DNA of 64,000 bases from Escherichia coli (lineage in GTDB: Bacteria; Pseudomonadota; Gammaproteobacteria; Enterobacterales; Enterobacteriaceae). The DNA is taken from the NCBI RefSeq assembly GCF_036507355.1, contig NZ_AP027878.1; one strand, written 5' to 3'. Below the pieces are notes generated by a model. It saw only the letters and a program-made list of their open reading frames with translations. It was not told the DNA's origin and did no database searches. Position 1 is the first letter of the stretch; every line of letters starts with the position of its first letter. A program made the position numbers and the translations under genes. This document shows positions 55,810-60,220 of this stretch, one piece after another.

Positions 55810-55972
55810 CACTGATCCTTAGAAGCTGTTTTTAATATCGGCCATACCAATGTTACAGCTACTGCTACCAACGCCCCGTCGGATAAAACCGACAGGATTG
55901 TGCTGGTGAAATCCACCAGCACAGATAGCACGAGAAAAACCAAAGCCAGAATTAGACGTGCTTTTATAACCA

Positions 55973-56398
55973 TCAGATATACTGTTCCAGTGGTAATTGA
56001 AGAGCCTGGGCAATTTTCTTCAATTGCTCCTGCTCTTCTGCCCCAATGCCATCCTGGTCAGCAATATCAATGCATAGGCACAGAACATCTACCGCATCAT
56101 TAGTTCCAGACACGTCAGCCAGTTCACGTAAAGCCTGGGCATTCGCTCGGCGCGGCGAGGCTTCATATTGAGCGCGAATATTGGCGCTCATCTGGGCAAT
56201 TTCACCGGAGAACGGCGCAAAGGCAGGAAGTGCTGCAATGGTTTTTTCCAATACTGCAATTTCTTTCGCATCGCAGGTGCCGTCAGAGTATGCAATGGAA
56301 TATGCGCCCCAGACAGTCGCTTCCACCGCATCACGGTTTTCCATCTTCTTGACTCCGCCAGCCGCTTTGCGGAATTTCTTTTTGAGAATGCCGAGCAT
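55973..56398 (-). CDS. tciA: TerB-like protein (TciA-like, tellurite resistance family)
   Basis: 141 aa; two DG-containing TerB-type repeats (YSDGTCDAKEIAVLEK..., IADQDGIGAEEQEQLKK...), GAGG RBS. Confidence 0.6.
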   Translation of the reverse strand: MLGILKKKFRKAAGGVKKMENRDAVEATVWGAYSIAYSDGTCDAKEIAVLEKTIAALPAFAPFSGEIAQMSANIRAQYEASPRRANAQALRELADVSGTNDAVDVLCLCIDIADQDGIGAEEQEQLKKIAQALQLPLEQYI

Positions 56399-57044
56399 TT
56401 ATTAACCTCATTACTGGTTGGGAAATAAGGTTGCGGTGCCGGGTGCTTCCCGGTGTCCTTTAGCTGGTTATCCACCGTGGACGGGGAAATAAGGAGAAAT
56501 AATGGACAGATATAACCATTTCCCCGCGTGCGCTTAGCCGCATTCACCGCAACGGAAAGAGCATTCCTGGTGGACCTGTAGATTGGGATATGAACCCGTT
56601 ACAGGAGAATGCTCTTACCTGTTACGTGCTCCGTTTCGTGGAGCTAACGGCGGGTGATCGGGCCGCACCAGACTGGACTTATTTCAGCGTTATGCTCATG
56701 CCAGAGAATCAAACTGTGATGGTCGGTGCTGAACTCCGACACAGGGTTGTAGCAAGCCCCGCAAAGCGCGCACTACTGTAGTTGCGGCACATCAGCCTGT
56801 GCATTCACCACAATGTTGAGAACACTGGTTGTCACGCTGCAACGCAACATTTATTCGTAGATTGGGATATGACCCCGTTACGCCAGTGTTCTCAACGTTG
56901 TAGTGCCGGTTACGGTTCCGGCCAGGCCTCTTCCTCAACGGGGTGTTCTCCATACGGACTACCGTTTATTGGTCGTTCCTGCGGTTTATGTTGTGAAGCC
57001 AGATGCTTATCTTCTGGTTGCTTCAAAGAGCTGCACTTCATCAC

Positions 57045-57128
57045 AACGGTAAGGGTACTTCGTAGGGATTCGAACCCTCTGCCAAGCTCGGCGATCTCCG
57101 ACGTCGCAAAATACCCTTACCTGTTGTG
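57045..57128 (-). ncRNA. tRNA-like structured element (T-arm-like AGGG-TTCGAAT-CCCT inside a long inverted repeat), not a canonical tRNA
   Basis: Minus strand has GGTTCGAATCC T-loop motif but no matching acceptor or anticodon arms; flanked by 17-bp inverted repeat CACAACAGGTAAGGGTA/TACCCTTACCGTTGTG. Confidence 0.35.
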
Positions 57129-57129
57129 C

Positions 57130-57205
57130 TGGTGCCGATTAACGGACTCGAACCGCTGACATCCTGCTTACAAGGCAGGCGCTCTACCAACTGAGCTAAA
57201 CCGGC
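57130..57205 (-). tRNA. tRNA-Thr (anticodon UGU)
   Basis: Minus strand GCCGGTTTAGCTCAGTTGGTAGAGCGCCTGCCTTGTAAGCAGGATGTCAGCGGTTCGAGTCCGTTAATCGGCACCA. Confidence 0.85.
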
Positions 57206-57207
57206 AT

Positions 57208-57283
57208 TGGCGATGGTGGATGGATTTGAACCATCGACCCGTTGATTAACAGTCAACCGCTCTAACCGCTGAGCTACACCATC
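57208..57283 (-). tRNA. tRNA-Asn (anticodon GUU)
   Basis: Minus strand ...GCTCAGCGGTTAGAGCGGTTGACTGTTAATCAAC...GGTTCAAATCC...CCA; two nt from tRNA-Thr. Confidence 0.85.
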
Positions 57284-57748
57284 ACTTGCCGGGTACGTCT
57301 CCGGCGAGGGCTTCCACCTCCGTATGCTTTTCGGCGCACCGCGCCCTGGCTGCAATTCGGTAACAGGGGATGCACAACCCTGGCTTCCAGCGTGATTAGC
57401 GCCTTCAGCATGACGGGATATACCCGTAAATTCGTGGAACTGTACCCAAAGTGCTGTTAAGCACCGCTGTTACGCTGAAAAGAAAACGCAACAGGAAAGG
57501 ACGCTGACCAACAGATGGCCCCTTCTCGTTCATCTGGTTAATCACACCAGCGCCCTTACCTGTTGTGCCTCCCCGTTCCCTAATACACAGACGGGGACAC
57601 TCTGCGGTCGATTTTTTGACGGGGGACGACTCATACCCCGTGGCATCTGGCTTCTTAGGCCGCTACCATCATCAGATCATCGTTTGCATTTACTTTAATG
57701 GTCAGTTTCTAAACCGCCGCAAAGTCGCTAACCATGACGAAAACCCTG

Positions 57749-57774
57749 AAAAAAACGCCCACCCGAAGATGGGC
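57749..57774 (-). terminator. Strong intrinsic terminator in the ban/tRNA operon leader
   Basis: Minus strand GCCCAUC-UUCG-GGUGGGC then seven U; about 160-180 nt downstream of the operator-overlapped promoter. Confidence 0.6.
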
Positions 57775-57937
57775 AAACTGGAAGCTCGTAACGCACTTCG
57801 GCGTTGCCACTTAGGCGCATGGTCAACCTGGCAACTCGGTGGTTTGTCTGGGAGGACTAGGCCCAGCCATGCTTACCGCCGCGCCTGTCGCGGCTAACAG
57901 CTAAATCGCTCTATAAATCACGATTCATTGAGGCGAT

Positions 57938-57965
57938 ATTACACTAATAAATTTATTAGAGCAAT
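57938..57965. promoter_or_regulatory. Bipartite C1 operator overlapping the promoter of the tRNA/ban operon
   Basis: Perfect AAATTTATTAGAGCAAT (57949-57965) overlapping a second inverted copy (57938-57954); minus-strand -35 TTGCTC and -10 TAATAT with 17-bp spacer. Confidence 0.8.
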
Positions 57966-60220
57966 ATACCCAAAACGTCATGAGCTACACCTCGAGTGTC
58001 CCCCTTACAAGACACAGAACGTCTGGCAAAAAGAGGTTCCACTCTGAAGCCACTGTCATGATAAAGCTCTCTGATGTTTGGCGCGCCACTGTTAGTAATG
58101 AGAACCTTTGCACCTCGACGATGAGCATCCGTCAACAGAGACACCAGGCGTTTTTGCTCTTCAAACTTAAAGTCATGACCGGAATAGTTCGTGAATCCCT
58201 CTGTATTTGGAAGCGGTTCATACGGCGGATCGCAAAAGATGACATCTCCTTCTCCGGCAGCTTCAATCACCGCTGCAAAATCACCGCATACAAACTCAGA
58301 CCGCCCTTCCGCACCGAGGAAGGCTTCCATCTCCTGTAATGGGAAATACGGAGTTTTATACTTCCCGTAACCGACATTGAACTCACCGGCCTGGTTGTAA
58401 CGCGTCAATCCGTTAAAACAATGTCGGTTCAGGAACAAAAACGCCGCTGCGCGATGTAAATCATCATAGACTTGTTTGTTAAACGCATTCCGTACTGCCA
58501 GGTATCCTTCCTGTGTGTTGTAGTCCTGGAAGAAACGATGCGCCAGTGTGATAAGTGAATGCGCCTCGCGTTGCAGAGTCTTGTAAAAGTTAATCAGGTC
58601 AGCATTCACATCATTTAGCAGATTTTCCTGGTATCCGGCATTCGTGAAGACAGCTCCGCCACCGACAAAAGGTTCGATCAGGCGCTTCCCTTCTGGCAAA
58701 TAGCGAAAGATTTGTTCCAGAACACCAAATTTTCCACCAGCCCATTTGAATATGGACCGTTCGAATTCTGCCGCTGGTTTAACTTTTCGCTCTTTTGTTT
58801 CACTTCCTTCTTTCTGCCGACATACGGCCTTAGTAATCCGATCGCCAATCCAGCGCATTACTGGTATTGCCATACTATTGCCGATCGCTTTGTAACGCGG
58901 TCCGTCAGCTGCAAGCATCGCGGCCTCTTCTTCGCTTAAATCTGGATAGTGATTGCGAAGATATGCCAGTTCATCTGAATTAACTTTTTTACGCTTTTCC
59001 GTCGGGATCAACGTATGCCCATCAGGAAAACCTTGCAGCCTTTCACATTCGACAGGGGTAAGACGGCGGACAGCTACTTCTGCGTTTCTTACTTCATAGC
59101 AAACAGCTGTTGGATTTTTAGCCATTAGAGATGGTGAAGTATTCTTAGTTGCAGCATGTTGTGTACCGCTCATACGCTCAGGAAAAGCCAATGTAACAAG
59201 ATGCTCATGGCTTTCTTGCTCACGTGCCCGCAATGTACCATGCCCTTCTGACCAAAAACCTGCTCCTGTGCTGCTAAAAACGGCAAGGTCAGTGGCATCT
59301 TTAAAATCTCTTGCCTTTACTGTCGATGCGGTTTCATCGTCAATATATTCCCCAAATGCTGCCATCCTGAAAGCGTTTACGGCTTTCGTCGATTTCATAC
59401 TGGGTGGCATGTCAGCGTGTAGGCATGGATTTAGGCTTTCGCCACTGATTGCAGCGCCATTTGCAATAATGGCGGAAGCGATTTCCTTCTTTTTTCGCCT
59501 CGGCGCAATATTCCGGCGCACGCCTTCGAACTCAAAAAGTACCGTTGCGGGATCGAGGTCTGTTCGAGCACTTGCGACAACAAACACGCGTCGGCGTCGT
59601 TGTGCCACTCCGAAGTATTGGGCATCAAGGATTCTCCAGGCCACCTTTCGCTGCGGTCCATAAATACAACCACACTGCGGCCACTTTGGAGCATGGCAAC
59701 CGGTTTTGCCATCCCACCGCCAGAACGCGTTACTTTTTCCTGATTCAGGTCGATCACCTGGTTCAAATGGCGCATCTTCTCCAGCCAATCCGGCAAGGAA
59801 ACATCCGAAGGCGTTATCTGCCGATGACAGGACTCCTGGGACATTTTCCCAGACGATAACTGTCGGTTTGAGGAAGGACTCAGACCGTTTGTCGTCAATT
59901 GCATTTGCAAGCTCCACATACTTCAAAGTTAGCGCGCCGCGTTCATCATCAAGCCCACCACGTAAGCCCGCGATACTGAATGCCTGACAAGGCGTACCCC
60001 CGACGAGCACATCAGGGGATTCGATTTCCCCAGCCAGGACTTTTTTGGCAAGTTTTGTCATGTCGCCAAGGTTGGCGACATGGGGCCAGCGGTGCGCAAG
60101 AACGGCAGATGGAAAAGACTCGATTTCAGCAAACCACACCGGACGCATACCCAACGGTTCCCAGGCAATACTCGCGGCTTCAATTCCACTGCAAACAGAT
60201 CCATAGCACAGCTCTTTCAC
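57956..60220 (-). CDS. dmt: Dmt, bifunctional DNA methyltransferase (C5-cytosine N-terminal, Dam-like N6-adenine C-terminal)
   Basis: 754 aa; GTPCQAFS and VWENVPGV (C5-MTase), FCDPPYEPL (DPPY motif). Confidence 0.85.

What the first reader, a model, noticed from the sequence alone, without database searches (positions are those of the whole stretch)
57749..57965. Operator-overlapped promoter followed by a strong terminator in a long untranslated leader before the tRNA/ban operon
A perfect C1 operator overlaps a minus-strand promoter (-35 TTGCTC, 17-bp spacer, -10 TAATAT). About 160-180 nt downstream on the minus strand is a textbook terminator (7-bp stem, UUCG tetraloop, seven U). No ORF of 60 aa or more on the transcribed strand lies between the promoter and tRNA-Asn, 650 nt away. 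This implies either a discrete C1-repressed small RNA or an attenuator gating read-through into the tRNAs, tciA and ban.
Basis: seen in the sequence. Interest (0 to 1): 0.5.

Follow-up and report, generated by a model that had tools for sequence, protein, structure and literature searches.

The report
P1 ban-leader RNA, DicF-precursor type
The flagged stretch is phage P1's known repressor-controlled ban promoter, followed by a roughly 180-base leader RNA whose conserved knotted fold also sits just upstream of the DicF small RNA in most E. coli genomes; what that fold does is unknown.

Summary
The window is phage P1 (99.9% to AF234172). The operator and promoter are already annotated as Op72ab and P1ban. 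The stretch ending at the hairpin is annotated "dicF-like region".

The new result concerns where that similarity lies. P1 does not match the DicF model. What it shares is a ~95-115 nt domain immediately upstream of DicF in Qin-type prophages, matched in most of the 4,420 of 5,426 E. coli genomes that gave a hit, and in Citrobacter, Serratia and Trabulsiella. Across 74 distinct sequences the domain keeps a pseudoknotted fold: 95.6% of cells paired, 14 pairs changed on both sides, 0 of 500 shuffles as good. It has no Rfam family. An intrinsic terminator follows it in 40 of 42 distinct contexts, and the other two show a long-stem hairpin with a T-run by eye.

In Qin, domain plus DicF has the length of the published 190-nt "long DicF" RNA. 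P1's promoter-to-terminator transcript (~181 nt) is its counterpart.

Best reading: termination releases a discrete C1-repressed RNA, and read-through makes the tRNA-tciABC-ban mRNA. A put-like antitermination role for the domain is not excluded.

The parts
57949..57965 (-). C1 operator Op72a (Obana), a perfect 17-mer ATTGCTCTAATAAATTT
   Evidence: 0 mismatches; 15 sites found against 0.42 expected. Annotated in AF234172.
57938..57954 (+). C1 operator Op72b (Obanb), 2 mismatches; overlaps Op72a to form the divalent operator
   Evidence: Inverted repeat I3.
57936..57964 (-). Promoter P1ban: -35 TTGCTC (57964-57959), 17-nt spacer, -10 TAATAT (57941-57936). Inferred start near 57929.
   Evidence: Sequence and AF234172 annotation. 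Not called by the consensus scan. The start site is inferred only.
57801..57893 (-). Conserved pseudoknotted RNA domain. P1a 57893-57889 / 57883-57879. P3 57877-57867 / 57822-57814. P2 57866-57862 / 57852-57848. P4 57837-57829 / 57809-57801. P3 and P4 interlock; the invariant loop GGUUGA is at 57828-57823.
   Evidence: Covariance model R1 matches 57911-57784 at 92.2 bits, E=5e-30. Pair counts. Coordinates.
57776..57800 (-). Variable single-stranded linker (…GAAGUGCGUUACGAGCUUCCAGUUU) between the domain and the terminator
   Evidence: The linker differs among P1, L059 and L137 types. No conserved seed is seen in the P1 group.
57749..57775 (-). Intrinsic terminator: stem UGCCCAUC/GGUGGGCG, UUCG loop, U7
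   Evidence: Retained in D6-like plasmids with or without the domain.

Best explanation
The finding is the start of the P1 ban operon. It comprises the divalent C1 operator Op72ab over promoter Pban and the first ~180 nt of the transcript.

That leader is a two-part RNA module of a type P1 shares with lambdoid prophages. The first part is a highly conserved domain of ~95-115 nt containing a pseudoknot. After 15-35 variable bases comes the second part, an intrinsic terminator hairpin.

When C1 repression is lifted, polymerases that stop at the hairpin release a discrete ~175-181 nt structured RNA. This is the primary-transcript counterpart of the 190-nt 'long DicF' RNA of the Qin prophage. There, the same domain is joined to DicF and is freed at its foot by RNase III. 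Polymerases that read through make the long mRNA for tRNA-Asn, tRNA-Thr, tciABC, trnI and ban. One promoter therefore gives two products.

In P1 the 3' arm is not DicF and shows no conserved seed. The conserved 5' domain is therefore the part under selection.

Shown here: the identity of the operator and promoter, homology of the domain, its fold, its constant pairing with a terminator, and the length match with the published 190-nt species.

Inferred: that P1 makes the short RNA, the start site, the fraction that reads through, and what the domain does (maturation or stability platform, or an independent function).
For: - Identity: 99.9% to P1, with Op72ab, P1ban and a 'dicF-like region' annotated at these positions.
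- Homology: window 57893-57799 matches a ~95-nt stretch just upstream of mature DicF. The query gave a hit in 4,420 of 5,426 E. coli genomes, most of them to this stretch. In Qin the match is at L002 1501-1597 and DicF at 1622-1673. R1 scores P1 at E=5e-30.
- Fold: 74 distinct sequences, 95.6% of cells paired, 14 pairs changed on both sides, 0 of 500 shuffles as good, slid controls 31-53% paired.
- Terminator pairing: 40 of 42 distinct downstream tails have a hairpin plus T-run within ~50-100 nt, although the hairpin sequences differ.
- Published RNA: a 190-nt DicF species is seen on Northerns. [quoted passage not shown] Counting 190 nt back from the DicF terminator end (~L002 1678) lands at ~1489, the foot of helix P0 at 1490.
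- Length match: the inferred P1 start to the end of the U-tract is 181 nt.
- Selection within the P1 group: P1 and P7 differ by compensatory changes in P2 and P3.
Against: - No expression data for this P1 RNA were found. The one P1 transcriptome preprint I read does not discuss the leader.
- The start site is inferred from a weak promoter, 7 of 12 consensus matches.
- The function of the conserved domain is not explained. DicF expressed without it is functional according to a review, so the domain is not needed for the small RNA's activity.
- The D6-like plasmid L138 keeps the same terminator and flanks without the domain, so the two parts can be separated.
- Sequences were collected with patterns that fix parts of P3 and the GGUUGACCAU loop, and they are closely related. 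Covariation in P3 therefore rests on one pair plus wobble changes.
Confidence: 0.58

Rival explanations
1. The conserved domain is a cis-acting processive antiterminator RNA that works like HK022 put. Once transcribed it docks on RNA polymerase and lets it pass the adjacent hairpin and later stops, including Rho-dependent ones in the ~1.4 kb untranslated leader, to reach the tRNAs, tciABC and ban. In lambdoid phages it would let polymerase reach dicB, kil and exo.
For: - The domain always lies in a repressor-controlled early operon, upstream of a strong terminator and co-oriented genes.
- Lambdoid phages that carry it show no N-like antiterminator ORF between PL and the domain. N-less relatives of phage 2H10 have been suspected of using RNA-mediated antitermination (PMC12315714).
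- Many unpaired positions are invariant across genera, as expected for binding conserved host machinery.
- Precedents of similar size and position exist: HK022 putL and the annotated HK639 putL-like RNA.
- From memory, not checked here: operator-constitutive bac-1 mutants express ban from this promoter in lysogens, which requires read-through without other phage proteins.
Against: - R1 finds nothing in HK022 or HK639, and put RNAs are two stem-loops without a pseudoknot.
- There is only one copy per phage.
- Tight spacing to a terminator is not required for processive antitermination.
- In Qin no transcript longer than ydfABC-dicF was detected under uninduced conditions.
- L138 lacks the domain but keeps the terminator.
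Confidence: 0.2
2. The domain is a sensor, riboswitch-like or factor-binding, that sets how often the adjacent hairpin terminates. This would be a true attenuator gating the ban operon.
For: A conserved aptamer-like pseudoknotted domain is followed at short, fairly constant distance by a terminator whose sequence varies. That is the usual riboswitch layout.
Against: - No alternative pairing between the domain and the terminator is conserved.
- The G-to-A change at alignment column 121 covaries with its P0 partner (CG, UA, UG), not with the unchanged GGCGG terminator arm.
- P1's terminator arms have no conserved complement in the domain.
- There is no match to any Rfam riboswitch.
Confidence: 0.08
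3. The leader is a mosaic remnant imported from a lambdoid early-left operon, and the domain has no role of its own in P1. The hairpin merely damps leaky transcription from Pban.
For: - The P1 leader shares several pieces with dicB-type operons, for example the sub-threshold STnc100 match upstream of tciA.
- The domain is present or absent as a block in D6-like plasmids.
Against: - Within P1-like elements the domain is kept with compensatory changes. P1 and P7 are 82.8% identical here, yet P2, P3 and P4 still pair.
- It is found in 474 plasmid records at full length.
Confidence: 0.07

Closest known systems
190-nt 'long DicF' RNA and DicF precursor of the Qin dicBF operon (Faubladier 1990; Ragunathan et al. 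2023)
   Same: Both have the same conserved 5' domain (R1 scores 155.6 bits in Qin and 92.2 bits in P1), a short linker, an intrinsic terminator at the 3' end, control by a repressed early promoter, and co-oriented genes downstream.
   Different: - The P1 3' arm is not DicF: no RF00039 match at E up to 10.
- P1 has no conserved seed in the linker.
- In P1 the 5' end would be the transcription start rather than an RNase III cut.
- The outer helix P0 of the lambdoid version is weak or different in P1.
HK022 putL/putR and the HK639 putL-like antiterminator RNAs
   Same: All are structured RNAs of 70-126 nt lying just downstream of a repressor-controlled early promoter and ahead of terminators, in phages that lack N.
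   Different: There is no sequence or model similarity. put RNAs have two stem-loops and no pseudoknot. No functional data exist for the P1 domain.
Intra-operonic and 3'UTR-derived small RNAs made by early intrinsic termination, such as SroC and DicF
   Same: One transcription unit gives a short terminated RNA and a longer mRNA.
   Different: In those cases the conserved, selected part is usually the seed and terminator. Here it is the 5' structured domain.
P1 c4 and P4 CI leader-derived regulatory RNAs (Rfam C4 family)
   Same: These are phage regulatory RNAs cut from operon leaders, with a closing helix and internal hairpins. This comparison rests on my own knowledge.
   Different: No C4-family match was found in the region. 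No complementary target sites were identified.

Membership tests
P1 C1-controlled operator/promoter (Op72ab/Pban) | 17-bp asymmetric operator matching ATTGCTCTAATAAATTT | tested here: met
   0 mismatches at 57949-57965 (-). A second site with 2 mismatches lies at 57938-57954 (+).
P1 C1-controlled operator/promoter (Op72ab/Pban) | Operator overlaps a sigma-70 promoter that drives ban | tested here: met
   TTGCTC-17-TAATAT lies inside the operator pair and is annotated P1ban in AF234172. The consensus match is only 7 of 12.
P1 C1-controlled operator/promoter (Op72ab/Pban) | Repression by C1 (with Bof) in vivo | not testable with these tools
   Rests on the record's annotation and on older literature recalled from memory.
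DicF sRNA (Rfam RF00039) | Match to the DicF covariance model at or above 48 bits | tested here: not met
   No DicF hit in P1 even at E up to 10 on a 291-nt stretch. The same model scores 76.7 bits on Qin.
DicF sRNA (Rfam RF00039) | Seed complementary to ftsZ and other DicF targets | not tested
   No tool call was run. A by-eye comparison with an ftsZ leader sequence recalled from memory suggested only about 5 bp. The P1-type linker varies among relatives.
Long-DicF-type leader RNA (conserved domain plus terminator) | Conserved pseudoknotted domain (P1a, P2, P3, P4) | tested here: met
   R1 E=5e-30 in P1. All four helices pair in P1. Family-wide pair counts.
Long-DicF-type leader RNA (conserved domain plus terminator) | Intrinsic terminator 15-35 nt after the domain | tested here: met
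   P1 has a 25-nt linker and then the hairpin and U7. The same layout is seen in 40 of 42 distinct contexts.
Long-DicF-type leader RNA (conserved domain plus terminator) | A discrete RNA of ~180-190 nt accumulates in vivo | not testable with these tools
   Shown for Qin only. For P1 it is inferred from the 181-nt start-to-terminator distance.
put-type processive antiterminator RNA | Sequence or structure similarity to HK022 put or to the HK639 putL-like RNA | tested here: not met
   R1 finds no match in HK022 or at the annotated HK639 element.
put-type processive antiterminator RNA | Promotes read-through of downstream terminators, dependent on the beta' zinc-binding domain | not testable with these tools
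   Needs reporter fusions or in vitro transcription.
Transcriptional riboswitch/attenuator | Mutually exclusive terminator and antiterminator pairings that covary | tested here: not met
   Changes in the 3' strand of P0 covary with its 5' partner, not with the terminator arm. P1's terminator has no conserved complement in the domain.
RfaH ops element (GGCGGTAGnnTG) | 12-nt ops consensus on the non-template strand | tested here: not met
   The domain reads GGCGGTAAGCATGG, so position 8 is A. P7 has GGCGGCAAG, which loses the T at position 6, and that change pairs with G in P3. The ops consensus itself is recalled from memory.

The most novel reading that the evidence does not exclude
The conserved pseudoknotted domain is a new class of phage RNA that acts on host machinery. 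It is present in most E. coli genomes and in P1-type plasmid prophages. The most likely form is a put-independent, cis-acting element that makes RNA polymerase read through terminators in N-less lambdoid phages and in the P1 ban operon. Alternatively it is a trans-acting structured RNA with a host protein target. DicF and the other 3' arms would then be interchangeable passengers.
Probability: 0.22. Interest if true: 0.75.

Novelty: new variant of a known kind. Interest (0 to 1): 0.42.

Why it matters
Three points are new or worth following up:

- **What 'dicF-like' means in P1.** P1 has no DicF. It has the structured 5' domain of the long DicF precursor. That domain is better conserved than DicF itself, is present in most E. 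coli genomes, and has no Rfam family. I found no description of it in the DicF literature available to me.
- **A cleaner test system.** In P1 the domain sits about 35 nt from a well-defined, repressor-controlled start site, with no upstream genes and no need for RNase III. That makes P1 a simpler place than Qin to ask what the domain does.
- **A possible answer to an open question.** If the domain controls read-through, it would explain how ban and the P1 tRNAs are expressed across a strong terminator, and how N-less lambdoid phages express their early-left genes.

Tried and rejected
- **Rfam scans** of 55000-59000 and 57700-57990 at permissive E-values gave only tRNAs and noise: nuoG, RyhB, isrB and tmRNA fragments, all driven by the terminator hairpin.
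- **DicF membership** is rejected: there is no covariance-model hit.
- **put membership** is rejected: R1 is silent on HK022 and HK639.
- **Riboswitch-style alternative pairing** was examined by eye across the terminator types and rejected.
- **RfaH ops resemblance** (GGCGGTA) is rejected: position 8 differs and P7 has lost T6.
- **tRNA-like reading** of the four-helix layout: no consistent CCA, and ARAGORN finds only the three known tRNAs.
- **Coding potential:** no ORF of 60 aa or more, and the substitutions are compensatory at the RNA level.
- **Single-sequence MFE fold** of the leader is unremarkable (z = -1.7) and misses the pseudoknot.
- **Full-text search for the core sequence** returned only unrelated primer matches.
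- **Literature not held:** Lobocka 2004 and King 2011, and nothing was found on Op72 or bac-1.

Full report
**What the window is.** The 1.6 kb around the finding is 99.9% identical to Escherichia phage P1 (AF234172 / NC_005856); the window's minus strand is P1's plus strand. The record annotates the following in order:
- the end of dmt;
- the divalent C1 operator Obanab (former Op72ab);
- promoters P1ban and P2ban;
- a 'dicF-like region';
- tRNA-Asn and tRNA-Thr;
- plp and upl on the other strand;
- tciA, tciB, tciC, trnI, ban and dbn.

**Checking the observation.** The 17-mer ATTGCTCTAATAAATTT is perfect at 57949-57965 (-). Operator-like sites are far more frequent in the window than chance allows: 15 with up to 3 mismatches, against 0.42 expected.

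They match the consensus at only 7 of 12 positions, and the generic scan did not report them. The promoter call therefore rests on the record's annotation.

The terminator is UGCCCAUC-UUCG-GGUGGGCG followed by U7, at 57775-57749. No minus-strand ORF between the promoter and tRNA-Asn exceeds 46 aa. With a start near 57929, which I infer from the -10 position, the terminated RNA would be about 181 nt and tRNA-Asn lies about 646 nt downstream.

**What lies between promoter and hairpin.** Rfam finds no family here, and the DicF model does not match P1 even at E up to 10. A sensitive BLAST of the leader against 5,426 complete E. coli genomes gave hits in 4,420 of them. Most were ~77% identical matches to window 57893-57799 only.

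In K-12 this stretch lies between ydfC and dicB in the Qin prophage, at L002 1501-1597. That is just upstream of mature DicF at L002 1622-1673. 'dicF-like' in P1 therefore means similarity to the region preceding DicF, not to DicF.

The same element occurs in many lambdoid phages: mEp460, PPompW, 2H10, cdtI, Stx2c phages and Salmonella phage F1055. In each case examined it lies in the early-left operon, downstream of the repressor gene and PL. In 2H10 it begins about 280 nt after a near-consensus PL.

A scan of one genome per species found it only in Enterobacterales: E. albertii, Citrobacter, Trabulsiella, Izhakiella and Serratia symbiotica. A few hits came from assembled metagenome bins named for other phyla; I take these to be contaminant contigs, which I did not check.

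**Structure.** Differences between P1, P7 and the lambdoid copies are compensatory. I derived these helices:
- P1a: CCGCG / CGCGG.
- P2: a variable hairpin.
- P3: GGU-AA-GYAUGG / CCAURC-GCY.
- P4: GUUGYCA / UGRCAAC. Its loop carries the 3' strand of P3, which makes a pseudoknot.
- P0: in lambdoid copies, an outer helix GUUGUGG / CYRCAAC.

On 52 sequences, 93.1% of cells pair and 12 pairs change on both sides. On a 100-sequence alignment fitted to the model (74 distinct rows), with P3 added by hand, 95.6% pair and 14 pairs change on both sides. No shuffle out of 500 reaches that, and slid controls fall to 31-53%. RNAalifold recovered P3 and its extension on its own.

Three caveats apply:
- The sequences are related to one another.
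- The collection patterns fixed parts of P3 and the GGUUGACCAU loop.
- Evidence for P3 rests on one covarying pair plus wobble changes.

Long unpaired stretches are invariant across genera: GGCGCGGCGGUAAG, GGUUGA and ACACCG. In P1 the helices lie at 57893-57801. P0 is weak or different in P1.

**Constant partner.** In 40 of 42 distinct downstream sequences, a hairpin plus T-run follows within ~50-100 nt. Its sequence varies: DicF type, 2H10 type, P1 type and several others. By eye, the two remaining sequences have a longer stem followed by a T-run. The conserved unit is therefore the domain plus 'a terminator', with an interchangeable 3' arm.

In the P1 group the linker varies (P1/P7, L059, L137), so no conserved seed is evident. 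Two D6-like plasmids share flanks and the same terminator but differ by presence (L137) or absence (L138) of the ~115-nt domain. The two parts can therefore be separated.

**Experimental anchor from the literature.** Ragunathan et al. (bioRxiv 10.1101/2023.04.14.536235) confirm Faubladier 1990 on these points:
- Northern blots show a 190-nt and a 53-nt DicF species.
- The 190-nt 5' end is an RNase III cut.
- RNase E converts the long form to the 53-nt form, and the long form accumulates when RNase E is inactivated.
- No transcript longer than ydfABC-dicF was detected.

Counting 190 nt back from the DicF terminator end (~L002 1678) gives ~1489. That is the foot of P0, which starts at 1490. By length, the conserved domain plus DicF is the known 'long DicF' RNA. 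P1's start-to-terminator transcript of 181 nt is its counterpart, made directly by initiation at Pban. The reviews I could read do not describe the 5' domain as a conserved structure.

**Mechanism.** The best-supported reading is a two-product unit. C1 (with Bof, from memory) blocks Pban. On derepression, termination at 57749 releases a discrete ~180-nt structured RNA, and read-through yields the tRNA-tciABC-trnI-ban mRNA.

What the domain does is not shown. DicF works without it, so it is not needed for small-RNA activity. Its invariant unpaired bases point to binding of a conserved partner.

**Rival readings.**
- A put-like antiterminator has contextual support. The domain lies ahead of the first strong terminator. 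No N-like ORF sits between PL and the domain in the phages that carry it. N-less relatives of 2H10 have been noted. From memory, ban is expressed from this promoter in operator-constitutive lysogens. Against it: model R1 finds nothing in HK022 or in the annotated HK639 putL-like RNA, put has no pseudoknot, and L138 manages without the domain.
- A riboswitch-type attenuator is unlikely, because no alternative pairing covaries with the terminator.
- An inert remnant is unlikely, given compensatory conservation within P1-like elements.

**Novelty and verdict.** The operator, the promoter and the 'dicF-like' label are known. What is new:
- The shared feature is a conserved pseudoknotted domain that has no Rfam family.
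- That domain is the 5' body of the long DicF RNA.
- In P1 it is joined to a non-DicF terminator arm, directly behind a C1-controlled start site.

I rate it a new variant of a known kind, of moderate interest. The main open question is the function of the domain.

Noticed in passing
window 57030-57132 (-): Directly after tRNA-Thr lies a 103-nt element that folds into a long stem of about 21 bp enclosing two small hairpins. One hairpin is T-arm-like (GGGUUCGAAUCCC). MFE is -42.7 kcal/mol, z = -4.7, and 0 of 200 shuffles fold as well. ARAGORN does not call it a tRNA. It looks like a tRNA-derived or pseudo-tRNA structure.
   Followed up: partly
window 56540-57570 (-): The motif AACAGGTAAGGG occurs three times (near 57564, 57125 and 56623). 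Three long inverted repeats (56806-56828/56883-56905, 56554-56566/56607-56619, 57048-57060/57109-57121) suggest repeated structured RNA modules on the transcribed strand, opposite the annotated plp and upl genes. The related phage Ro157c2YLVW annotates an extra tRNA-Tyr in this region.
   Followed up: no
window 56432-56551 (-): A sub-threshold Rfam STnc100 match (33.4 bits, E=1e-4) lies just upstream of tciA. By eye the sequence resembles the dicB 5' untranslated region in Qin (L002 ~1700-1810). The P1 ban leader therefore seems to be built from several pieces of a lambdoid dicB-type operon.
   Followed up: no
L137 and L138 (D6-like plasmids), about 480-530 and 895-995: The leader in these plasmids starts at a TTGATT-17-TAGAAT promoter flanked by GTGTTAGAAA inverted repeats, which are likely operators of a different repressor. 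It also contains a second conserved region bracketed by GUUGCGG…CYGCAAC, the same closing-helix sequence as P0 of the lambdoid domain.
   Followed up: no
window 57690-57745 (-): Just after the terminator is a hairpin AUGGUUAG…CUGACCAU enclosing GCGGCGGU. It echoes two motifs of the conserved domain (GCGGCGGU and UGACCAU) and is conserved between P1 and the D6-like plasmids. This may be chance or a degenerate half-copy.
   Followed up: no
window 56800-58400, compared with RCS47, JL22, vB_EcoM-813R1 and OP279344: Several P1 relatives match this 1.6 kb in two pieces that span about 1,798 bp. They therefore carry an insertion of about 197 bp somewhere in the leader or tRNA region relative to P1.
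   Followed up: no
window 55623-55698 (-): ARAGORN calls this gene tRNA-Met (anticodon CAT). The P1 record annotates it as trnI, tRNA-Ile2, meaning the CAT anticodon is read as Ile after lysidine modification.
   Followed up: no
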